NCBI GenBank assembly: GCA_004321885.1
Contig: SCQK01000004.1
Span: 1-64,000 of the forward strand
Length of the DNA: 64,000 nt
Origin: Patescibacteria group bacterium
GTDB taxonomy: Bacteria; Patescibacteriota; Patescibacteriia; Magasanikbacterales; GWA2-37-8
Direction of reading: 5' to 3'
Part shown: piece after piece, positions 7,798-42,212 of the stretch
Numbering within the stretch: the first letter of the stretch is position 1
How the letters are laid out: every line of letters begins with the position of its first letter
The notes under the pieces: generated by a model
What the model was told of the DNA's origin: nothing
The model's database searches: none
Seen by the model: the letters and a program-made list of their open reading frames with translations, nothing else
Translations under genes and position numbers: made by a program

Positions 7798-9989
7798 ACA
7801 TACATCGTTTTCGCCGCGTTGTAGAGCTGTTTCACCTCGGCCGCCGACAGGGCGCGGTTGTACACGCGGACGTCGTCAATGGAGCCATTAAAATAAGCTA
7901 AATTAGAAGCTCTTCTTAACACGCCAATATCCATCGCTGTCGCGTCAACTATATCACCAAACCAATTTCCAGGATTTGCTACTTGATTTACAGTCATTGT
8001 TTGACTGATACCGTCAATATACGCGCTCCAAGCAGAACCATTAGAAATAAATACAACCTGGTGCCAATTTGTATCTTGATAAGAATTGCTGGGAGTAACA
8101 ACATCACCTTGTAGCGCTTGATTGACACGATTCCAAACTTCTAATCTTTTATTTGTTTTATCAAAATAAAAAACTAATTCATCATCATAAGAACCAGGTA
8201 CGGCAATGCTAAAAAGAGCTAAATCCGCAGACAAGCTGGCCATTTTTGTCCAGAATGCTACTGTTCCTTGTTGATTTGTTAAAAATGAGGGAGAAGTTTT
8301 TTCTATATAATCACTCGTCCCATTAAAACTCATCGCCCCGCTGATTTTCCCCGCCACTTTCGTGGGCGTGTTGGCCGAAGTGCCATGATTTCTATTGCCG
8401 CTTTTATCCCAGACATTTAATCCGCTTATATCCCCGCTGTCCATCGTCCAATACCCCACCAGCCCGCGGCGGGGGGCCGAGTTTGAGTACTTTTTTTTGA
8501 CCGCGTTGTAGAGCTGTTTCACCTCGGCCGCCGACAAGGCGCGGTTGTAGACGCGGACATCGTCAAATACAAAATCCGCTGGTTGTATGTAGCTGACCTC
8601 TTGAAAAATGCCAATCATAAAAAGATTGGCATCAGTCGCGTCATCAAACCATTGTCCAGAATTTGCGCCTGAATAAATGGTGAGCGGCAATGACATATTA
8701 TCAACATAAACGCTTATAGCAGAACCACTGGAAGTAAAAACAATATGATGCCAATTATTGTCGTTAATAGTATTATTGGGCGTCACCATATTCAACGTGA
8801 GGGCTCCATTTTGTGTTAAAATAATTTGAAAGGACTTTGAGCTGTCTCCTCTGTAATCCCAACGCAACGCATCATCAACTACTCCATTTGTCGCGATTGA
8901 GACAAATGTGCTAATAGCAGCATAAGCATTTGACCTTTTTGCCCAAAAAGAAATAGCGCCTTGCGAGTCATTTATAAAAGACGGATTGCTTTTGGTGATC
9001 CACTCCGTGCTCCCGTCAAAATTCAGCGCGTTGCCTATTTTCCCGGCCACGAGGTCGGCCGAGGTGATATTGGTGCCAGTGCCGTGGTTTTGCTGGCCGC
9101 TTTTGTCGTAGACTTTCGTGCCGTTTATATCCCCACTATCCATTGTCCACCACCCCACCAGTTGTTTGCGAACCGGGGCTTTGGTAAAGTTGCTTTTGGT
9201 GGCCTGGTATAGTTGTTTCACCTCGGCCGCCGACAGGGCGCGGTTGTACACGCGGACGTCATCAAGGGAGCCAGGGAAATATGAACCGCCATTTTCCACG
9301 CCTATTTGCAAATTTTTGCTGGAAGCAGCATTTCTGGCCGCCAACCCGCTTGCTGTGCCATCCTGCGCGCCGTTTACGTATACATAAGCATTATCGCCAT
9401 TTCTTACCGCTGCAACATGATACCATGTGTTTGCATTTAATGTAGTCGTCCCCGTGACATCAATACCACCTGAACCAACATAAAAAAGTAATTTTTGCCC
9501 CGCCCCCAAATTACGGGTATCAAATATAAACCCCATCTCACTTGCTCCGCCATTATTATATTTATCTAAAATTAAACTAATGGTGTTCCAAGTTGAGGCT
9601 TTTATCCACGCGGACAGCGTAAAATTTCCTGTCCCAAAATTAAATGACGCGCCTGGAGCTTGTAAGAACTGTGAAGAGCCGTTAAGATTCACAGCTTCCT
9701 TTATTTTCCCCGCCACAACGGTCGGACTGCCTGTTGAAGTAGCGTGATTCTTGTAACCTGATTTATCGTAATAGGTTATCCCACTCACATCCCCGCTATC
9801 CATCGTCCACCAGCCCACCAGCCCTTGGCGCGGGGCCGCGGCGTGGGCGACGTCTACCCCCCCTAGCCCCCCCTTATTAAGGGGGGGGAACGCAAAAAGC
9901 GCGCCCCAGAGAGCGACGCAAAAAACCGACAGCATTGTGGCTCCACGCACAGCATGGAGCCAGCGATTTTTGGAAGGTTTGCGAGACAT
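7791..9989 (-). CDS. secreted protein with three LamG-like lectin domains
   Basis: 732 aa. Signal peptide ending VDVAHAAAP. LSAAEVKQLY motif x3. The first 31 codons lie in a 98-bp segment duplicated at 10758..10856. A family-D palindrome (9848..9885) encodes FPPLNKGGLGGVD in frame. Confidence 0.8.
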   Translation of the reverse strand: MSRKPSKNRWLHAVRGATMLSVFCVALWGALFAFPPLNKGGLGGVDVAHAAAPRQGLVGWWTMDSGDVSGITYYDKSGYKNHATSTGSPTVVAGKIKEAVNLNGSSQFLQAPGASFNFGTGNFTLSAWIKASTWNTISLILDKYNNGGASEMGFIFDTRNLGAGQKLLFYVGSGGIDVTGTTTLNANTWYHVAAVRNGDNAYVYVNGAQDGTASGLAARNAASSKNLQIGVENGGSYFPGSLDDVRVYNRALSAAEVKQLYQATKSNFTKAPVRKQLVGWWTMDSGDINGTKVYDKSGQQNHGTGTNITSADLVAGKIGNALNFDGSTEWITKSNPSFINDSQGAISFWAKRSNAYAAISTFVSIATNGVVDDALRWDYRGDSSKSFQIILTQNGALTLNMVTPNNTINDNNWHHIVFTSSGSAISVYVDNMSLPLTIYSGANSGQWFDDATDANLFMIGIFQEVSYIQPADFVFDDVRVYNRALSAAEVKQLYNAVKKKYSNSAPRRGLVGYWTMDSGDISGLNVWDKSGNRNHGTSANTPTKVAGKISGAMSFNGTSDYIEKTSPSFLTNQQGTVAFWTKMASLSADLALFSIAVPGSYDDELVFYFDKTNKRLEVWNRVNQALQGDVVTPSNSYQDTNWHQVVFISNGSAWSAYIDGISQTMTVNQVANPGNWFGDIVDATAMDIGVLRRASNLAYFNGSIDDVRVYNRALSAAEVKQLYNAAKTMYVK

Positions 9990-10035
9990 ATCACGTAATT
10001 TGACAAAATCAGTTACTCATGTTATTCTATCTTTA

Positions 10036-10146
10036 GAAAACAACAGCTGAATACTTCCCTTCCGCAGTCATGTCTGCGGGGCGAAAGCTTGGAAGGTGTC
10101 CGCGAGGAATAGGCTGATCCCCCTTAAACGGGGGTTTTTGTTTTTT
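10036..10146 (+). ncRNA. candidate small structured RNA (sRNA-2), convergent with DUF3800 paralog 2
   Basis: TTGACA 10000-10005 N17 TATTCT 10023-10028. Hairpin ccgcag-tcatgt-ctgcgg; GGCGAAAG; tcc-GCGA-gga hairpin; GAATAGGC. Terminator ccccc-ttaaac-ggggg + T-tract ending ~12 nt before the DUF3800 stop. Confidence 0.5.
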
Positions 10147-10157
10147 ACACATTTTTA

Positions 10158-10718
10158 TTAAATTTGTTTCAAAATTCCTTTCACGCAAAATTCTTTATAT
10201 AAATCCGGGAATGGTTCTTCTTCCTCCGTTTTGTCCCTCATAAAACCGGCAATGGCATCCGCCAAACGAACAAAAACATCGCTTTCATCTCTGGCGCCTC
10301 TCACTTTCCGAACTTTTATTCTTAACTTTCGCAAACCGGCCGCGAATCTTCCTCTTTCTTCTCTTTTTAATCCATCCACCAAAACCGTCGCCGTGTACTC
10401 TTTTTCCGCCCTTTGAGAAATTGCTTTAGCCGTAGATAATATCGTCAAATCCACATACGCCTTTGAATCTTCATATTTTGAAAAGAACGCGCTATTTCTC
10501 AATAATCCGCTTCCCAAAATCAGCCGTAAGTACGAAATTCTGCTTCTTCTTCTCGCTTTTGACCATTTGTGGACTCCCTTTCCGCTCTCTTTTTCAATAT
10601 TTTTTAACTTTTCTTTTATCGCGTCACGCTCTTTTTCCAAAATTATCACGGAAACCAGAAATAATTTTCCTTCGGTATCTTGCCCTGTTTCATCCACATA
10701 ACAATAATACTTTTGCAT
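10158..10718 (-). CDS. DUF3800-like protein (paralog 2)
   Basis: MQKYYCYVDETGQD ... RDESDVFVRLADAIAG. The listed ORF extends to 10814, but the extra 96 nt belong to the duplicated LamG-3 5' segment. Confidence 0.6.
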   Translation of the reverse strand: MQKYYCYVDETGQDTEGKLFLVSVIILEKERDAIKEKLKNIEKESGKGVHKWSKARRRSRISYLRLILGSGLLRNSAFFSKYEDSKAYVDLTILSTAKAISQRAEKEYTATVLVDGLKREERGRFAAGLRKLRIKVRKVRGARDESDVFVRLADAIAGFMRDKTEEEEPFPDLYKEFCVKGILKQI

Positions 10719-10757
10719 ATCAGGACTATACCACCGAATTGCGTGAATGCCAAAACA

Positions 10758-10856
10758 GCGCGCCCCAGAGAGCGACGCAAAAAACCGACAGCATTGTGGC
10801 TCCACGCACAGCATGGAGCCAGCGATTTTTGGAAGGTTTGCGAGACATGCAATCGC
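10758..10856. repeat. duplicate of the LamG-3 promoter-proximal/5' coding segment (9893..9990)
   Basis: Essentially identical ~98 bp including the ATG and first 31 codons (MSRKPSKNRWLHAVRGATMLSVFCVALWGAL). After that the frame ends after 40 codons. Confidence 0.8.
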
Positions 10857-10902
10857 AGTTACTATGTATTTAATACACTTCTTGTTTTTATTCGTTACAC
10901 CC

Positions 10903-13439: not shown

Positions 13440-13586
13440 AAATAGTACCACTGAAATTACTAAATCTCAATGTCAAATTTCCAATCAATTTCAAATGACT
13501 AATGTTCAATGTCAAATTTTACATTTGAATTTTGACATTGGACATTGATTTGACATTAGTAATTTGGGTTTTGAAATTTCAACATT
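13440..13586. repeat. family-C long imperfect palindrome (CCAAT/ATTGG-rich)
   Basis: Left arm caatgtcaaatttccaatcaattt...; right arm ...atttgacattggacattgatttgacattag. About 130 bp, self-complementary, in a divergent intergenic region. Relatives at 22030..22140, 31140..31250, 31975..32100. Confidence 0.55.
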
Positions 13587-26304: not shown

Positions 26305-26400
26305 AAAAAAACTGGCTCCATACTCTGTGTGGAGCCAGTTTGCAATACGGCTCCACAGCCCCGACTAAGTCGGGGACTATGGAGCCAGCTACTGACCAGC
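26305..26400. repeat. family-A palindromic element copy
   Basis: ctggctccatactctgtgtggagccagtttgcaatacggctccacagccccgactaagtcggggactatggagccagc. Confidence 0.7.
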
Positions 26401-31139: not shown

Positions 31140-31250
31140 AAGAATGCTTTAAATTTCCAATTTCCAATCAATGTCCAATGACCAATTACCAATATCCAAT
31201 TTGGACATTTGGATTTTGGCATTGATTTGACATTGGAAATTTGTCATTTG
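31140..31250. repeat. family-C CCAAT/ATTGG-rich palindrome
   Basis: aatttccaatttccaatcaatgtccaatgaccaattaccaatatccaat | ttggacatttggattttggcattgatttgacattggaaattt. Confidence 0.55.
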
Positions 31251-32021
31251 TCATTTCGCCAACACCTTCTCCCACTCGCTCATAGGCACTACGCCTTCCA
31301 CTTTCTCGCTGTTGATAAAAAACGTGGGCGTGCCCTGCACCCCAAATCTAAATCCGTCAGCGTAATCGCGATTCACTTTCACTCCGGTCCGGCCCGAGTC
31401 CACGCATTCTTTTAATTTTTGCGCGTCCAGGTAGGCGGTATCGGCCAAAAACTTGTAATCCTCGCCGGCCAGCTCTTTACTAAACGCGTCTTGATTGGAA
31501 AACAAGGCGTCGTGCGCCTCCCAAAAACGGCCCTGCTCGGCGGCGCAGGCCGCCACTATGGCAAACTTGTTCGCGCCCGGGTGAATTGACTCGGAGGGAA
31601 AAAGCCGGACCGTTAATTTCACTTTGTATCCATATTGGGCCATCATCTGGCGCATTATGGGCGCGGCCATTTTGGAATTTGGGCACTTGAAATCCACAAA
31701 CTCCACAATGGAAATTTTGGCATTGGGATTGCCCAAAAACAGCCCGCCCCCTTCTAACTCGGCTCGGCCCGGCTTGGCCGCGGCGAGCGGCGTTTTTATG
31801 GACCGGTCAAAATTTCCGTAAAATGTCTGCCGCAGTTTCAGCCCCTCGCCATTTTTTATCTGCCGCCAGTACCCAATGGTATAAAAAACAAAAAGCGCCA
31901 AAAACAGCGCCAGCAAAGCGCCCAGCCCCAAAATCACGATAGCCCACCAGTGGTGATACCAACGCATATGTTGAAATGACCAATTACCAATAACCAATTT
32001 CCAATCAAATCCAAATGCCAA
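31251..32021 (-). CDS. DsbA-family thioredoxin-fold protein with CPNS (CxxS) active-site variant
   Basis: N-terminal TM; VEFVDFKCPNSKMAAP; thioredoxin-like DsbA region ...GVQGTPTFFIN. Confidence 0.65.
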   Translation of the reverse strand: MAFGFDWKLVIGNWSFQHMRWYHHWWAIVILGLGALLALFLALFVFYTIGYWRQIKNGEGLKLRQTFYGNFDRSIKTPLAAAKPGRAELEGGGLFLGNPNAKISIVEFVDFKCPNSKMAAPIMRQMMAQYGYKVKLTVRLFPSESIHPGANKFAIVAACAAEQGRFWEAHDALFSNQDAFSKELAGEDYKFLADTAYLDAQKLKECVDSGRTGVKVNRDYADGFRFGVQGTPTFFINSEKVEGVVPMSEWEKVLAK

Positions 32022-32100
32022 ATAACAAACTTGGACATTTTAACTTTGACATTAGGAATTGATTTGATATTAGAAATTTGGATTTTGGCATTTACCGGAT
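31975..32100. repeat. family-C CCAAT/ATTGG-rich palindrome
   Basis: tgaccaattaccaataaccaatttccaatcaaatccaaatgccaaat ... ttggacattttaactttgacattaggaattgatttgatattagaaatttggattttggcattt. Confidence 0.55.
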
Positions 32101-34543: not shown

Positions 34544-36358
34544 ATGATTAGACAACATTCACGAGGACGGCATCAGCGCGCGCGACGCGCCTATAACACG
34601 CCGCCCAAAGAAGCGCCGGCGCAAAGCGCGAACGGCAAGCCAAATATTATCCGGCCCATCTACCAAAAGCCGTCGTTTTCGCGTTTCAAAAACGATGATT
34701 TGAAACTAAAAATCGCGGTCTTGGGCGGGCTGGAAGAAGTGGGTCGCAACTGCACTTTATTTGAATACGACGGCGATATTATTTTGGTTGACATGGGCCT
34801 GCAATTCCCCGAAGAAGATATGCCCGGCATTGATTACATCATTCCCAACATCGGCTATCTGAAAGGCAAGGAAAAAAATATCCGCGGGGTGATTATCACC
34901 CACGCTCACTACGACCACATCGGCGGCATACCCCACCTGATTCCGGCTCTCGGCTATCCCCCGATTTACGGCCTGCCGCTGACGAACGCCATCATCAAAA
35001 AGCGCCAGGAGGATTACCGTGGCCTGCGGCCGCTAAACATTCATAATATAAATGTGGCTGATAAGTTGCAATTAGGAAATTTTGAACTGGAATTTTTTCA
35101 CCTGAACCACAACATCCCCGATTCCATGGGCGTGGTGATTCGCACTCCAGAAGGCGTAGTGGTGCACACCGGCGACTGGAAATTTGACTACCAACCGGCC
35201 GGCGAACAGCCCGCGGACTTGCAAAGAATAGCGTCCATCGGCAGTCAGGGCGTGCTGGCGCTTTTGTCCGACAGCACCAATGCCTCGTCCCCGGGCCACC
35301 AGATCTCCGAGTCCGAAATCCGCACCAATCTGGATGACATCATTGCCAAGGCCCCGGGCCGCATAATCATCGGCACTTTTTCTTCGCTCTTGTCGCGCAT
35401 CAAGCAGATTATTGAAATCTCCGAAAAACTGGGCAAGGTGGTGGCCCTGGACGGCTTTAGCATGAAAAGCAACGTGGCCATTGCCAAAGAACTAAACTAC
35501 ATGCGATTCAGTCCCAAGACCTTGATTGACCTAAACCGCACGCGCGATTACCCGGACAACAAGGTGGTCATCGTGTGTACTGGCGCCCAGGGAGAAAAAA
35601 ACGCTTCCCTAATGCGTATTGCCAGCGGCGAGCACCGCTTGATAGAACTGACGCCCGGGGATACGGTGGTGTTTTCTTCTTCGGTTATCCCGGGCAACGA
35701 GCGCACTGTTCAGCGCCTCAAAGACACTCTTTTTCGCAAAGGCGCCGAGGTGATTCATTACCAGATGATGGACGTGCACGCCGGCGGGCACGCCAAGGCC
35801 GATGACGTGAAGCTAATGATACGCCTGCTTTCGCCCAAGTATTTTATTCCCATTGAAGGCAACCACTTTTTATTGCACTACAACGCCAAGGTGGCTGAAA
35901 GCATGGGCTTTCCCAAAGAAAATATTTTTATCGCCGACAACGGGCAAGTAATGGAATTTTTCCGCGGCGCCGGCCAGCTCACCAGAACCAAACTGCCGGC
36001 CGATTACGTGTTCGTGGACGGCCTGGGCGTGAGCGATGAAACCAACATTGTTTTGCGCGACCGGCAAGTCCTGGCCGAAGACGGCATGATTGTGGTGATA
36101 GCCACCGTGGACAGCAAAACCGGCAAGCTGGTGCAAAACCCGGATATTATTTCGCGCGGGTTTGTGTTTTTGAAAGAAAACAAGGAGCTGATAGAAGACC
36201 TGCGCCACCGCGTAAAAAAGCTGGTTACCGACAGCGACCCGCTTTCCTGGGCCGACACCAACAACATCCGCAACAAAATCCGCGACTATGTGGGACAATT
36301 TCTGTTTTCCAAAACCGAAAAACGCCCCATGGTGCTTCCAGTGGTGATAGAGGTATAA
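34544..36358 (+). CDS. rnj: ribonuclease J (beta-CASP metallo-beta-lactamase RNase)
   Basis: ITHAHYDHIGG metallo-beta-lactamase motif, beta-CASP region, RNase J C-terminal domain. Confidence 0.85.
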   Translation: MIRQHSRGRHQRARRAYNTPPKEAPAQSANGKPNIIRPIYQKPSFSRFKNDDLKLKIAVLGGLEEVGRNCTLFEYDGDIILVDMGLQFPEEDMPGIDYIIPNIGYLKGKEKNIRGVIITHAHYDHIGGIPHLIPALGYPPIYGLPLTNAIIKKRQEDYRGLRPLNIHNINVADKLQLGNFELEFFHLNHNIPDSMGVVIRTPEGVVVHTGDWKFDYQPAGEQPADLQRIASIGSQGVLALLSDSTNASSPGHQISESEIRTNLDDIIAKAPGRIIIGTFSSLLSRIKQIIEISEKLGKVVALDGFSMKSNVAIAKELNYMRFSPKTLIDLNRTRDYPDNKVVIVCTGAQGEKNASLMRIASGEHRLIELTPGDTVVFSSSVIPGNERTVQRLKDTLFRKGAEVIHYQMMDVHAGGHAKADDVKLMIRLLSPKYFIPIEGNHFLLHYNAKVAESMGFPKENIFIADNGQVMEFFRGAGQLTRTKLPADYVFVDGLGVSDETNIVLRDRQVLAEDGMIVVIATVDSKTGKLVQNPDIISRGFVFLKENKELIEDLRHRVKKLVTDSDPLSWADTNNIRNKIRDYVGQFLFSKTEKRPMVLPVVIEV

Positions 36359-36364
36359 ATAATC

Positions 36365-36545
36365 GCTGGCTCCATAGTCCCCGACTAAGTCGGGGCTGTG
36401 GAGCCGTATTGCAAACTGGCTCCACACAGAGTATGGAGCCAGCGGGTGTAGAAAATCGCTGGCTCCATAGTCCCCGACTAAGTCGGGGCTGTGGAGCCGT
36501 ATTGCAAACTGGCTCCACACAGAGTATGGGGTCAGCGAGCAAAGG
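36365..36545. repeat. two tandem family-A palindromic elements
   Basis: cgctggctccatagtccccgactaagtcggggctgtggagccgtattgcaaactggctccacacagagtatggagccagcg repeated twice. Confidence 0.8.
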
Positions 36546-41018: not shown

Positions 41019-42212
41019 ATGCGCGTTGGCATTGATGTCAGGCCGCTGATGAATGACGTGCGCACCGGCATTGGCGAATACACGCATTTTTTGCTGGACA
41101 CTATTTTTGACATTGATAAAAAGAACGAATATTTTCTGTTTTACAACTCCGGCAAAGATGTCGGCGCCAATATTCCCCAGTGGACGCAAAATAATATTCA
41201 TTATGTCGCGAGCAGATGGCCCAATAAAATTTTCAACGCGTCCATAAAATTTTTCAACCGGCCGCGAATCAAAGAGGTGGACATTTTTTTTTCTCCTAAT
41301 CTCAACTTCACCGCCCTGTCGCCGAAAACAAAATTTATTCTCACGGTTCACGACTTGTCCTTTGAGCTGTTTCCGGAATTTTTTTCCGCCAAACAGCGGC
41401 TGTGGCACAAAATGATAAACCCGCGCAGACAATGCCAGCGGGCCGATATTATTATCGCGCCCTCTGAAAACACCAAGCGGGATTTGAGGGAGATATATAA
41501 TATAGAAGAGAAAAAAATAAAAGTGATTTACCCGGGAATATGTCATCCCGACCCGCCACAGGGCGGGGAGGGATCTCTGTTCACGGCTGGCTCCATAATC
41601 CCCCCCACAGGGGTGGAGCTAAACTGCAAGCTGGCTCCACAGCCCGCCTTTGGCGGGATTATGGAGCCAGCCAATTCCAATCCCTACATCCTCTTCCTCG
41701 GCACCATTGAGCCGCGCAAAAATATTATCGGCCTGATAGAGGCGTTTGAAAAAGCCTGCCCCTCGCTCCCGGCGCCTTACACCCTCGTTATCGCCGGGGC
41801 CGCGGGCTGGAACAATAAACAGATTTACGAACGCGCCAAAAATTCCCCCATTAAAGATAAAATTAAAATTTTGGGATACGTGCGGCCGGAAGAAAAGCCG
41901 GCTCTGTATGCCGGCGCGGCCTTGTTTTGCTATCCCAGCATTTACGAGGGCTTTGGTTTTCCGGTTTTGGAAGCCATGTCCGCGGGGACTCCGGTTTTAA
42001 CCTCAAACCGCTCTTCCCTGCCGGAAATAACGAGCGGCGCCGCGCACCTGGTAAATCCAAACAATGTTTCCGACATGGCCGCAGGCATAATAAACATTTT
42101 AACCAACGAAAAACTGCGCAATTTTTTGAAAGAAAAGGGCCAAGAGCAGGCCGCGAAATTTTTATGGCAAGAAGCGGCGGAAAAATTTTTAAGCGTTATT
42201 CGCTCTTTGTAA
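41019..42212 (+). CDS. glycosyltransferase family 4, with in-frame palindromic-element insertion
   Basis: GT4 motifs (ILFLGTIEPRKN, EGFGFPVLEAMSAGTPV). Segment 41585..41668 (ggctccacagcccgcctttggcgggattatggagccagcc, family-A-like) encodes ...GVELNCKLAPQPAFGGIMEPANS in frame. Confidence 0.75.
   Translation: MRVGIDVRPLMNDVRTGIGEYTHFLLDTIFDIDKKNEYFLFYNSGKDVGANIPQWTQNNIHYVASRWPNKIFNASIKFFNRPRIKEVDIFFSPNLNFTALSPKTKFILTVHDLSFELFPEFFSAKQRLWHKMINPRRQCQRADIIIAPSENTKRDLREIYNIEEKKIKVIYPGICHPDPPQGGEGSLFTAGSIIPPTGVELNCKLAPQPAFGGIMEPANSNPYILFLGTIEPRKNIIGLIEAFEKACPSLPAPYTLVIAGAAGWNNKQIYERAKNSPIKDKIKILGYVRPEEKPALYAGAALFCYPSIYEGFGFPVLEAMSAGTPVLTSNRSSLPEITSGAAHLVNPNNVSDMAAGIINILTNEKLRNFLKEKGQEQAAKFLWQEAAEKFLSVIRSL

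What the first reader, a model, noticed from the sequence alone, without database searches (positions are those of the whole stretch)
10000..10718. Second DUF3800/sRNA module sits between the LamG-3 start and a duplicated LamG-3 5' segment
The sRNA-2 promoter -35 is only ~11 bp from the LamG-3 ATG (divergent). The DUF3800 start is preceded by a 98-bp exact duplicate of the LamG-3 promoter-proximal region plus its first 31 codons (10758..10856). This suggests the module inserted into, or recombined with, the 5' end of a LamG gene.
Basis: seen in the sequence. Interest (0 to 1): 0.55.

Follow-up and report, generated by a model that had tools for sequence, protein, structure and literature searches.

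The report
Mobile DUF3800–sRNA cassette splitting a LamG gene start
A 763-bp two-gene cassette (an RNase H-like DUF3800 protein plus a small structured RNA) has landed in the first 32 codons of a secreted LamG-domain gene of a Patescibacteria genome, duplicating those codons. The same "cassette between duplicated host DNA" signature recurs in unrelated bacteria, so these poorly understood cassettes look mobile.

Summary
The duplication is real, but its details need correcting. It is 96 nt with one mismatch (92 nt exact), at 9894-9989 and 10753-10848. It starts exactly at the LamG-3 ATG and contains no promoter.

Between the copies lies a self-contained 763-bp cassette:
- A convergent ~110-nt sRNA with its own promoter and terminator.

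The upstream copy is an orphan 40-codon fragment. The downstream copy heads the intact LamG-3.

In 80 homologous loci from other phyla, nearly all carry a homologous three-way-junction sRNA in the same position. No Rfam 15 family matches it.

Eleven to 13 of 79 cassettes are bracketed by high-identity direct repeats of host sequence (25-144 nt). Shifted control windows gave none of comparable identity in 131 tests.

In one Saccharibacteria genome, two different DUF3800 cassettes are stacked in atpG. Each is preceded by atpG codons 1-35, and the three copies differ only synonymously.

I conclude that a mobile or recombining DUF3800-sRNA cassette inserted into the LamG-3 5' end. The insertion mechanism is unresolved; homology-mediated (Campbell-type) integration is favoured over a staggered-cut target duplication. 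The gene-RNA pairing is known; the flanking-duplication signature and this RNA motif appear new.

The parts
7791..9989 (-). LamG-3: 732-aa secreted protein with three Laminin_G_3 domains. It is intact, and its first 32 codons are repeat copy A.
   Evidence: ORF list. Pfam Laminin_G_3 E 6.4e-69 with 3 stretches. The N-terminus has a basic region, a hydrophobic core and an AHA|AAP site.
9894..9989 (-). Direct repeat copy A: ATG plus codons 2-32 of LamG-3, continuous with the gene.
   Evidence: the repeat finder family D13, alignment, blastn 179 bits.
9939..9961 (.). REP-like palindrome GGCTCCA-N9-TGGAGCC inside copy A. The same element lies at 10798-10820 in copy B.
   Evidence: 14 such palindromes in the window against 0 in shuffles. 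The 39-nt core is 90% identical to 4228-4266. Inverted repeats I8 and I9.
10000..10028 (+). Promoter of sRNA-2: TTGACA, 17 nt, TGnTATTCT. It is divergent from LamG-3, 10 nt from its ATG.
   Evidence: Consensus scan, 10/12 matches with an extended -10. Equivalent promoters occur in most homologous loci.
10035..10146 (+). sRNA-2 (~110 nt), a three-way-junction RNA. P1 pairs 10044-10048 with 10112-10116. P2 is extended by two extra hairpins. P3 is UCC-GCGA-GGA. The intrinsic terminator is at 10119-10146. The RNA is convergent with DUF3800-2.
   Evidence: Fold. Homologues in the same position in most of 80 loci. P1 is paired in 51/51 sequences, with compensatory changes in 4 of 5 pairs. Covariance model hit of 48.3 bits at 10040-10119 (this sequence was one of the 51 seeds). 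Terminator. No Rfam family matches.
10158..10718 (-). DUF3800-2: 186-aa protein with an RNase HII-like fold and conserved D9, E10, D115 and D154.
10725..10753 (-). Promoter-like site for DUF3800-2: TTGGCA, 17 nt, TGnTATAGT. It ends 6 nt before the ATG, so the mRNA may be leaderless. It lies in the 34-38-nt left arm of the cassette.
   Evidence: Consensus scan, 10/12 with an extended -10. It is a consensus match only. A similar arrangement was read in L002.
10753..10848 (-). Direct repeat copy B: the orphan 5' fragment of LamG-3. It opens a 40-codon ORF (10848..10726) that stops 7 nt before the DUF3800-2 ATG.
   Evidence: translation.
10849..10902 (-). Original upstream region of LamG-3: the 54 nt between the stop of the conserved 122-aa gene and the ATG of copy B.
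   Evidence: The 659-aa/122-aa gene pair is conserved in relatives. The independent Logan contig is identical through this region.

Best explanation
A 763-bp autonomous cassette (window 9990-10752) has been inserted after codon 32 of the LamG-3 gene. The cassette consists of:
- a promoter-like site followed by the DUF3800-2 ORF, which encodes an RNase HII-like protein;
- a shared hairpin terminator;
- a convergent ~110-nt three-way-junction sRNA with its own promoter.

The insertion left the first 92-96 nt of the ORF on both sides. The upstream copy is a dead 40-codon stub next to the old LamG-3 upstream region. The downstream copy keeps LamG-3 intact, so LamG-3 must now be transcribed by read-through across the cassette (inferred).

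The cassette belongs to a family that moves between genomes and phyla. Members are repeatedly found bracketed by 25-144-nt duplications of host sequence: gene 5' ends, gene 3' ends or intergenic DNA.

Most likely route (inferred, not shown): the cassette travels together with a piece of its target and integrates by a single crossover in that homology (Campbell-type). Once flanked by repeats it can loop out, be stacked with other cassettes, and be passed between related strains by homologous recombination.

Probable function (inferred from family knowledge and anatomy): a two-component protein-RNA module of the toxin-antitoxin or defence kind. In it, the structured sRNA would bind or be processed by the RNase H-like protein.
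For: Shown in the window:
- The repeat and its exact boundaries.
- An intact LamG-3 and an orphan stub.
- Cassette contents and signals.
- No second copy of the repeat flanks elsewhere in the window.
- An independent assembly breaks exactly k-1 nt into the repeat.

The cassette is a unit:
- In 80 loci from CPR (candidate phyla radiation), Acidobacteriota, Chloroflexota, Gammaproteobacteria and other groups, the homologous sRNA sits convergently just after the stop codon in nearly all of them.
- Nucleotide homology between cassettes in different contexts runs from about the ATG to about 80-140 nt past the stop, that is to the sRNA 5' end or promoter, and then stops.

The flanking repeats recur:
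- blastn: 7/62 real flank pairs score at least 30 bits, against 2/128 shifted controls. Inverted-orientation matches never exceeded 30 bits, on the roughly 75 loci with adequate flanks.
- tblastx: 13/79 real pairs score at least 30 bits, 11 of them at 75% or higher identity. Controls gave 6/131, all at 69% or lower and explained by paralogous domains.

The parallel case, L024:
- The order is atpA, then atpG(1-35), DUF3800-X, atpG(1-35), DUF3800-Y with its sRNA, then full atpG.
- The three atpG fragments differ at 8, 14 and 17 nt with no amino-acid change. This points to copies that came from functional atpG genes of different lineages, and so to recombination rather than in-situ neutral decay.

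In the window itself, a perfectly identical 92-nt block abuts a diverged, indel-bearing patch of similarity upstream of the ATG. That also fits homology-mediated exchange better than a fresh staggered cut.

Against: - No empty site or presence/absence polymorphism could be found for this locus.
- About 85% of homologous cassettes show no flanking repeat. Either the repeat decays or many insertions never had one.
- Some repeat cases are weaker evidence. L001 and L047 lie in a repeated family linked to 23S-rRNA-IVP genes. In L064 and L032 the repeats may be ends of paralogous genes, because substitutions are mostly at third codon positions.
- The Campbell model does not explain how a cassette first acquires a piece of a new target.
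- No recombinase other than the RNase H-like protein is in the cassette.
- Nothing shows that the cassette is active, toxic or expressed.
- The repeat contains a REP-like palindrome, so a host repeat-directed process cannot be excluded.
Confidence: 0.72

Rival explanations
1. Transposition-like insertion with a long, variable target-site duplication. Two nicks 25-140 nt apart are made in the target, the cassette is ligated in, and gap repair duplicates the stretch between the nicks. The RNase H-fold DUF3800 protein, possibly with its sRNA, would be the enzyme.
For: - Near-identical repeats directly abut compact cassettes in several genomes: W2 92/92, L081 25/25, L043 47/47, L026 37/37, L060 96%.
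- The duplicated DNA is arbitrary host sequence, either coding or non-coding.
- The RNase H fold is shared with integrases and transposases.
- Selection would keep only insertions whose duplication restores the hit gene, which explains why gene ends are seen.
Against: - There are no terminal inverted repeats or conserved cassette ends.
- The atpG copies in L024 differ only synonymously, which in-situ duplication followed by decay does not predict.
- In L024 the repeat includes the sRNA promoter itself.
- The sRNA shows no complementarity to the duplicated target beyond cross-locus controls.
- I know of no prokaryotic transposon with duplications this long and variable (own knowledge).
Confidence: 0.15
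2. The repeat is a relic of a tandem LamG gene duplication. A fourth LamG gene with the same 5' end once lay upstream, and its body was later replaced by the cassette. On this view the repeat was not produced by the insertion.
For: - The region is full of segmental duplications: three LamG paralogues, a duplicated tRNA with its flank (4058-4243 and 7514-7699, 91%), and duplicated 110-nt gene tails (98%).
- A short patch of similarity also exists upstream of the two ATGs.
Against: - The 5' end of LamG-3 is unrelated to those of LamG-1 and LamG-2. The window therefore gives no evidence that this 5' end was ever part of a duplicated gene.
- The 92-nt block is perfect, whereas the other duplications in the region are 60-98% identical.
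- The same architecture occurs at atpG, a single-copy gene in a conserved operon, and at unrelated sites in other phyla.
Confidence: 0.08
3. Assembly artefact. The assembler walked once through a loop in the graph, or joined population variants, so the two copies are a single genomic sequence.
For: - The source is a metagenome-assembled genome.
- A 92-nt exact repeat is shorter than the largest k-mers commonly used.
- The Logan graph does branch at the repeat.
Against: - The branch in an independent assembly shows that two different left neighbours of the repeat really exist in the reads.
- The copies differ just outside the exact block, and each has its own unique flank.
- Equivalent structures with diverged copies (86-96%) occur in many assemblies made by different groups. 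They cannot all be graph loops.
- Even in the loop scenario, the cassette would have to carry a copy of the LamG-3 5' end.
Confidence: 0.05

Closest known systems
DUF3800-associated RNA motifs (DUF3800-I to -XI, Weinberg et al. 2017, PMC5737381; Rfam RF02961, RF02968, RF02969 and others)
   Same: - A small structured RNA is encoded next to a DUF3800 gene, often followed by an intrinsic terminator. It can lie on either strand or side, and its function is unknown.
- The window itself holds a bona fide DUF3800-II RNA at 61251-61314 next to a third DUF3800 gene.
- sRNA-2 has the same topology as DUF3800-II: a closing stem, two hairpins, and A/CUA before the closing strand.
   Different: - Neither sRNA-2 nor its homologues in 20 other loci reach any Rfam 15 family. 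One homologue (L063) and sRNA-2 itself gave no DUF3800 family even at E up to 10 in short-stretch searches.
- The conserved junction sequences differ: GAAUAC, GUG and AUAG here, against GACAAA, AAA and CUA in DUF3800-II.
- The paper reports no mobility or flanking duplications.
- I could not check whether all eleven published motifs are in Rfam.
Integrative elements that carry a copy of the end of their target gene (for example islands in tRNA gene 3' ends) and Campbell-type integration
   Same: - Direct repeats made of a gene end flank the insert.
- The gene stays intact on one side and an orphan fragment is left on the other.
- Elements can stack in tandem at one site, as at atpG in L024.
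   Different: - The insert is only 0.76 kb and has no tyrosine or serine integrase.
- Targets are 5' or 3' ends of arbitrary protein genes or intergenic DNA, not a fixed att site.
- Repeat length varies from 25 to 144 nt.
Small protein-plus-RNA toxin-antitoxin cassettes (type III ToxIN; type I systems with convergent 3'-overlapping antitoxin RNA such as txpA/RatA; E. coli LDR and QUAD repeats)
   Same: - A compact two-component cassette in which each part has its own promoter.
- The sRNA is convergent and shares a terminator with the protein gene.
- Several copies occur per genome and cluster in variable regions (own knowledge for the named systems).
   Different: - The protein has an RNase HII-like fold and is neither a ToxN/AbiE-type nuclease nor a small membrane peptide.
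- The sRNA lies outside the coding region and is a conserved three-way junction, not a repeat array or a simple antisense RNA.
- Toxicity has not been shown.
Other DUF3800 contexts: retron type VII (RT plus DUF3800; PMC7736814) and Cas12a2-linked TPR-DUF3800 (PMC10910872)
   Same: - The same domain, with an RNase H(2)-like fold and a DE motif.
- It always accompanies a non-coding nucleic acid.
- There are weak PADLOC hits to DUF3800_VII.
   Different: - The cassette contains no reverse transcriptase, CRISPR array or Cas gene.
- The PADLOC scores are weak (15-21 bits).
IS110/IS1111 bridge-RNA recombinases
   Same: An RNase H-like (DEDD) protein is encoded together with a structured non-coding RNA in a small mobile unit.
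   Different: - The protein is a single 186-aa domain without the serine Tnp domain.
- The sRNA has no loops complementary to the target.
- The flanking duplications are long, whereas IS110 elements leave none or only 2 nt (own knowledge).

Membership tests
Pfam DUF3800 (PF12686) | Profile score above the curated gathering cut-off | tested here: met
   27.0 bits against a cut-off of 21, E 8.5e-6, covering profile positions 1-147 of 149.
Pfam DUF3800 (PF12686) | N-terminal DE motif and conserved acidic residues on an RNase H-like fold | tested here: met
Rfam DUF3800-II RNA (RF02961) or any other Rfam DUF3800 RNA family | Covariance-model score at or above the family's gathering score | tested here: not met
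   There is no hit on 10035-10146 at the gathering threshold or at E up to 10. Homologues in 20 other loci gave none either. The true DUF3800-II RNA at 61251-61314 scores 67 bits.
DUF3800-associated structured RNA (class in the sense of Weinberg et al. 2017) | Conserved RNA next to DUF3800 genes across lineages, with a structure supported by covariation | tested here: met
   It is present in the same place in most of 80 loci. P1 is paired in 51/51 sequences, and 4 of its 5 pairs show double changes. P2 and P3 hairpins are predicted in nearly all sequences despite different sequences.
Classical insertion sequence / DDE transposon | Terminal inverted repeats and a short target duplication of fixed length | tested here: not met
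   There are no inverted repeats at 9990 and 10752. Cassette ends are not conserved between loci. Repeat lengths range from 25 to 144 nt.
Integron gene cassette | Cassettes separated by attC recombination sites, with an IntI integrase nearby | tested here: not met
   The flanking repeats are fragments of host genes (LamG-3 codons 1-32; atpG codons 1-35), not a shared attC-type element. No integrase lies among the ORFs examined at 1-13.3 kb. The rest of the genome was not searched.
Site-specific integrative element | Element-encoded tyrosine or serine recombinase | tested here: not met
   The 763-bp insert holds a single ORF, DUF3800.
Site-specific integrative element | Direct repeats made of the end of the target gene, leaving the gene intact | tested here: met
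   Window and L024.
Toxin-antitoxin module (type I or III) | The protein is growth-inhibiting and is neutralised by the cognate RNA | not testable with these tools
   Only the architecture is available: own promoters, a convergent sRNA and a shared hairpin.
Retron type VII | Adjacent reverse transcriptase and msr/msd RNA | tested here: not met
   There is no further ORF in the cassette. The PADLOC DUF3800_VII hit is only 15.6 bits.
RNA-guided (bridge-RNA-like) recombinase | RNA segments complementary to the target or donor | tested here: not met
   The longest sRNA-to-repeat complementarity is 5-9 nt in the same locus, leaving out an 11-nt value at L024 where my sRNA and repeat windows overlapped. 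Cross-locus controls average 6.3 nt with a maximum of 10.

The most novel reading that the evidence does not exclude
DUF3800-sRNA cassettes are a new class of minimal mobile element. Their RNase HII-like protein, together with the structured sRNA, would catalyse or trigger insertion of the cassette itself, for example at RNA:DNA hybrids or R-loops near gene ends. This would produce the long (25-144 nt), variable target duplications seen here. The many unrelated 'DUF3800 RNA motifs' would then be the cognate RNAs of a family of RNA-dependent self-inserting modules.
Probability: 0.1. Interest if true: 0.9.

Novelty: new variant of a known kind. Interest (0 to 1): 0.6.

Why it matters
DUF3800 genes and their dozen or so unrelated partner RNAs have been an open puzzle since 2017; Weinberg et al. 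wrote that 'no specific hypothesis ... is obvious to us'.

This work adds three concrete points:
- The gene and RNA behave as one compact, self-contained, horizontally moving cassette.
- The cassette lands in or next to host genes with a characteristic duplication of host sequence.
- Different DUF3800 cassettes can pile up at one site.

Together these point to a selfish or defence-type protein-RNA module. They also give predictions that can be tested directly: excision circles, toxicity relieved by the sRNA, and RNase H-type cleavage.

The work also defines an RNA family, with strong covariation, that Rfam 15 does not detect.

For genome annotation, orphan 5' gene stubs next to such cassettes, and the displaced promoters of the genes they hit (here a secreted LamG protein; elsewhere atpG), should be recognised for what they are.

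Tried and rejected
1. Rfam. Whole window at gathering, 9900-10900 and 540-1700 at E up to 10, 20 related loci at gathering, and one short stretch of L063 at E up to 10. Nothing matched sRNA-2 or its homologues.

2. Exact-protein look-ups for DUF3800-2, its identical database entry P0001, and LamG-3. None is on record. The 122-aa neighbour gave one Logan contig, which proved useful.

3. Empty-site search with the 659-aa neighbour in metagenome contigs. Only relatives of about 50% identity were found. The 659/122-aa pair is conserved but the downstream genes differ, so no comparison was possible.

4. Guide-RNA idea. sRNA-2 has UUGGAAGGU, complementary to LamG-3 codons 4-7. That segment is the conserved 3' strand of P2, and same-locus complementarity is no better than cross-locus controls. 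Rejected.

5. Idea that the sRNA -35 box is fused to the start codon of the next gene (TGTCAATG). It was seen in 10/62 loci, but only 2-3 of these open long ORFs. It is probably just an A/T preference upstream of the -35 box. Dropped.

6. Terminal inverted repeats: none.

7. Plasmid and phage collections searched with the protein: no match.

8. PADLOC: only weak partial hits.

9. Flanking repeats around the other two DUF3800 modules of the window: none.

10. A covariance model of the sRNA family finds only sRNA-2 in the window. The RNA next to DUF3800-1 (648-750) has the same topology but is not matched.

11. My first regex extraction of sRNAs failed and was replaced by a hand-picked set.
Full report
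**Source and setting**

DUF3800-2 is 100% identical to a protein of a Patescibacteria (candidate phyla radiation, CPR) metagenome-assembled genome whose contig is 86.7 kb. The first 11 kb of the window form a variable region on the minus strand. Reading from 1 to 11 kb, it holds:
- a truncated IS481/IS3-like transposase ORF (1-532; my reading);
- DUF3800-1 with its own sRNA;
- LamG-1, a tRNA, a Bro-N protein and LamG-2;
- a duplicated tRNA, then LamG-3;
- the feature studied here.

It is then bounded by a 122-aa and a 659-aa gene. Relatives conserve that gene pair but have different genes downstream of it. The window has three DUF3800 genes, all above the Pfam cut-off. One of them (61336-61878) lies next to a true Rfam DUF3800-II RNA.

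**1. The observation**

The repeat is real.
- Coordinates: 9894-9989 and 10753-10848, with 95/96 identity. The exact block is 92 nt and the period is 859 nt.
The repeat is not fully exact over 98 bp, and it does not include promoter-proximal DNA.
- On the coding (minus) strand both copies begin precisely at ATG and run through codon 32: MSRKPSKNRWLHAVRGATMLSVFCVALWGALF.
- Copy A continues into an intact 732-aa protein with three Laminin_G_3 domains and a plausible signal peptide.
- Copy B continues for eight more codons and stops 7 nt before the DUF3800-2 ATG.
- The centre of the repeat is one of 14 GGCTCCA-N-TGGAGCC palindromes in the window. The remaining ~57 nt of the repeat occur nowhere else in the window.
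- An independent Logan assembly of run SRR8426592 matches the window base for base and ends exactly 30 nt into copy B. This is the k-1 signature of a sequence that has two different left neighbours in the reads. The repeat is therefore not an invention of one assembler.

**2. What lies between the copies**

The 763 nt at 9990-10752 form a complete expression unit.
- On the minus strand: a promoter-like site (TTGGCA, 17 nt, TGnTATAGT) ending 6 nt before the ATG (a consensus match only), followed by DUF3800-2 (186 aa).
- On the plus strand, convergent with it: a promoter (TTGACA, 17 nt, TGnTATTCT), an RNA of about 110 nt, and a strong intrinsic terminator 11 nt from the DUF3800 stop codon.
- There are no terminal inverted repeats.

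The protein:
- It has invariant D9, E10, D115 and D154.
- It gives a confident AlphaFold2 model (pLDDT 92).
- This agrees with what two papers say about DUF3800 (PMC7736814, PMC10910872).

**3. Related loci**

The protein has more than 1000 homologues. A scan of one genome per species returned 246 loci, of which 80 were kept. They come from CPR lineages, Acidobacteriota, Chloroflexota, Gammaproteobacteria, Planctomycetota and others.

The sRNA family:
- In nearly all loci a homologous sRNA sits in the same convergent position behind the stop codon, with a near-consensus promoter and usually a terminator.
- The consensus is ..CAGCC GAAUAC UGCCC-GUAU-GGGUGG GUG [variable hairpin] AUA GGCUG.
- The closing stem P1 is paired in 51 of 51 sequences, and four of its five pairs show double compensatory changes.
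- P2 and P3 are predicted in almost every member although their sequences differ.
- In sRNA-2 and a few relatives, P2 is extended by two extra hairpins.
- No Rfam 15 family matches this RNA. Tests were at gathering in the window and in 20 loci, and at E up to 10 on two short stretches.
- Its topology resembles DUF3800-II. It is therefore a further DUF3800-associated RNA motif, either new or one of the published eleven that Rfam does not hold. I could not tell which.

Limits of the cassette: nucleotide homology between cassettes in different genomic contexts begins around the ATG and ends 80-140 nt past the stop, at the sRNA 5' end or promoter. Gene plus RNA is therefore the inherited and transferred unit.

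**4. The flanking duplication is recurrent**

For each locus I compared the 450-500 nt upstream of the DUF3800 start with the 650-700 nt beyond the sRNA.
- blastn: 7 of 62 loci had direct matches of at least 30 bits. Windows of the same geometry shifted by 1.3 kb gave 2 of 128. Inverted-orientation matches never exceeded 30 bits, on the roughly 75 loci with adequate flanks.
- tblastx, including loci with shorter flanks: 13 of 79 had matches of at least 30 bits, 11 of them at 75% or higher identity. Controls gave 6 of 131, all at 69% or lower and attributable to repeated domains such as PD40, ABC and LamG.

What is duplicated varies:

| Duplicated DNA | Cases (length, identity) |
|---|---|
| 5' end of the downstream gene | this window; L024 |
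| 3' end of a gene | L016, L032, L064, L047 |
| Internal piece of a gene | L053 (81 nt, 86%) |
| Intergenic DNA | L081 (25 nt), L043 (47 nt), L026 (37 nt), L001 (42 nt), L060 (75 nt) |

Caveats:
- L001 and L047 lie in a repeated family linked to 23S-rRNA-IVP genes.
- L064 and L032 show mostly third-position differences and may be ends of paralogous genes.
- About 85% of cassettes have no detectable repeat.

**5. The closest parallel**

L024 comes from a Saccharibacteria genome. Between atpA and atpG, which are normally adjacent in the atp operon (established knowledge), lie two DUF3800 cassettes of different subfamilies.
- Each cassette is directly preceded by atpG codons 1-35, and the third copy heads the intact atpG.
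- The three copies differ at 8, 14 and 17 nucleotides but encode the identical peptide.
- Orphan stubs should decay neutrally. Purely synonymous differences, including CGT/AGA and AGT/TCT codon pairs, mean the copies diverged inside functional atpG genes of different lineages. Recombination then brought them together.
- The 137-nt repeat between copies 2 and 3 also includes the sRNA promoter.
- Tandem cassettes also occur in L016, L026 and L043.

**6. How it most likely works**

Shown:
- An autonomous DUF3800-sRNA cassette sits inside a duplicated LamG-3 5' end.
- The cassette family is transferred as a unit.
- Flanking host duplications are enriched around it.

Inferred:
- The cassette arrived by recombination in a stretch of homology to the LamG-3 5' end that it carried with it: Campbell-type single crossover of a circularised fragment, or exchange with a donor allele that already held the insert.
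- This accounts for several observations: a perfect 92-nt block next to a diverged, indel-bearing patch upstream of the ATG; the synonymous-only differences and stacking at atpG; and the absence of inverted repeats or an integrase.
- It does not explain the first capture of a new target. A staggered-cut insertion or a replication template switch remains possible for that step, and for the short, perfect repeats that abut compact cassettes (L081, L043).

Consequences for the host (inferred):
- LamG-3 is cut off from its former upstream region and must be read through from the cassette, against convergent sRNA transcription.
- The 96-nt repeats allow precise loss of the cassette by homologous recombination.

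Function of the module (inferred from family context):
- It would be a protein-RNA pair of the toxin-antitoxin or defence type, in which the conserved three-way-junction RNA binds, or is a substrate or regulator of, the RNase HII-like protein.
- A simple antisense role is unlikely. The RNA lies outside the ORF, and its structure, not its complementarity, is what is conserved.
- An RNA-guide role has no support.

**7. Rivals**

- Staggered-cut transposition: 0.15.
- Relic of a tandem LamG duplication: 0.08. This is weakened by the unrelated 5' ends of LamG-1 and LamG-2 and by the atpG case.
- Assembly artefact: 0.05. This is weakened and by diverged repeats in many independent assemblies.

**8. 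Comparison with what is known, and novelty**

The pairing of DUF3800 genes with small structured RNAs is published, and its function is unknown (PMC5737381). DUF3800 as an RNase H-like domain in retron type VII and next to Cas12a2 is also published.

I found the following in none of the 18 library papers that mention DUF3800; I judged this from the titles and abstracts of the 15 listed and from the DUF3800 passages of four of them:
- the behaviour of gene plus RNA as a compact mobile cassette;
- the recurrent 25-144-nt flanking duplications of host sequence;
- the stacking of different DUF3800 cassettes at one gene start;
- this particular RNA motif.

I therefore rate it a new variant of a known kind, of moderate to good interest. 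The window's own event is a clean, recent example, and the cross-genome pattern gives the DUF3800 puzzle a testable handle.

Noticed in passing
window 1707-1801, 4233-4311, 7689-7783, 9939-9961, 10798-10820, 26314-26386, 36368-36498, 41633-41668: A family of REP-like palindromes, GGCTCCA-N(9-24)-TGGAGCC, often with AGCG/CGCT flanks. There are 14 copies in 64 kb against 0 in shuffles. They mostly occur as a short-plus-long pair just after gene ends. One copy lies inside the coding start of LamG-3, and therefore in both repeat copies.
   Followed up: partly
window 1428-1522 (+) and 60968-61063 (+): A second small RNA-like element is conserved between the neighbourhoods of DUF3800 modules 1 and 3. 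It has a TTGACA/TGATAATAT promoter, then AGAAAAAGGCUUU..., a long hairpin and a U-run. Fold z-scores are -3.7 and -3.8. No Rfam match was found. Nothing similar lies next to module 2.
   Followed up: partly
window 648-750 (+) next to DUF3800-1 (749-1324, -): sRNA-1 has the same topology as sRNA-2: a closing stem, a GUAU-loop hairpin, a GCGA-loop hairpin, AUAG, and a terminator (z -3.6). Neither Rfam nor my covariance model of the sRNA-2 family matches it. Together with the DUF3800-II RNA at 61251-61314, one genome therefore carries at least three different DUF3800 RNA variants.
   Followed up: partly
L024 1540-3800 (Saccharibacteria MAG contig CAZXAY010000001.1): Two DUF3800 cassettes of different subfamilies are stacked between atpA and atpG. 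Each is preceded by atpG codons 1-35, and the three copies differ only by synonymous changes (8, 14 and 17 nt). An essential operon is interrupted by about 2 kb of inserts.
   Followed up: yes
window 4058-4243 and 7514-7699; 1699-1808 and 7681-7790: Segmental duplications in the LamG cluster. A tRNA plus 115 nt is duplicated at 91% identity, and a 110-nt gene tail at 98%. The mechanical LamG-2 ORF (5309-7651) runs across the duplicated tRNA on the other strand, so its real start is probably further downstream.
   Followed up: no
window 13469-13580, 22048-22152, 31152-31257, 31989-32094; also L001 60-160 and 1055-1110, L047 2690-2830: AT-rich repeats of the type AATGACCAATTTTCAAT occur in intergenic regions. 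In other CPR genomes they flank 23S-rRNA-IVP (PF05635) genes and sometimes DUF3800 cassettes. This may be a separate repeated or mobile family, and it can mimic target duplications.
   Followed up: no
window 1-532 (-): A truncated ORF resembling an IS481/IS3-type DDE transposase (helix-turn-helix plus the start of an rve domain; my reading of the translation, not tested against profiles). It lies next to DUF3800 module 1 at the edge of the window.
   Followed up: no
L026 1075-1345; L016 2101-3800; L043 310-2700: Cassette arrays in other genomes. L026 has two different sRNA subtypes in tandem behind one DUF3800 gene. L016 has two DUF3800 cassettes in tandem, each followed by a fragment like the upstream gene's 3' end. 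In L043 three DxSG-type genes lie in a row. NYN-domain genes lie just downstream in L081 (Pfam-confirmed) and probably in L043.
   Followed up: partly
window 36352-36537: A tandem 93-nt repeat (95% identity), each unit made of a long and a short GGCTCCA palindrome, lies between two convergent genes.
   Followed up: no
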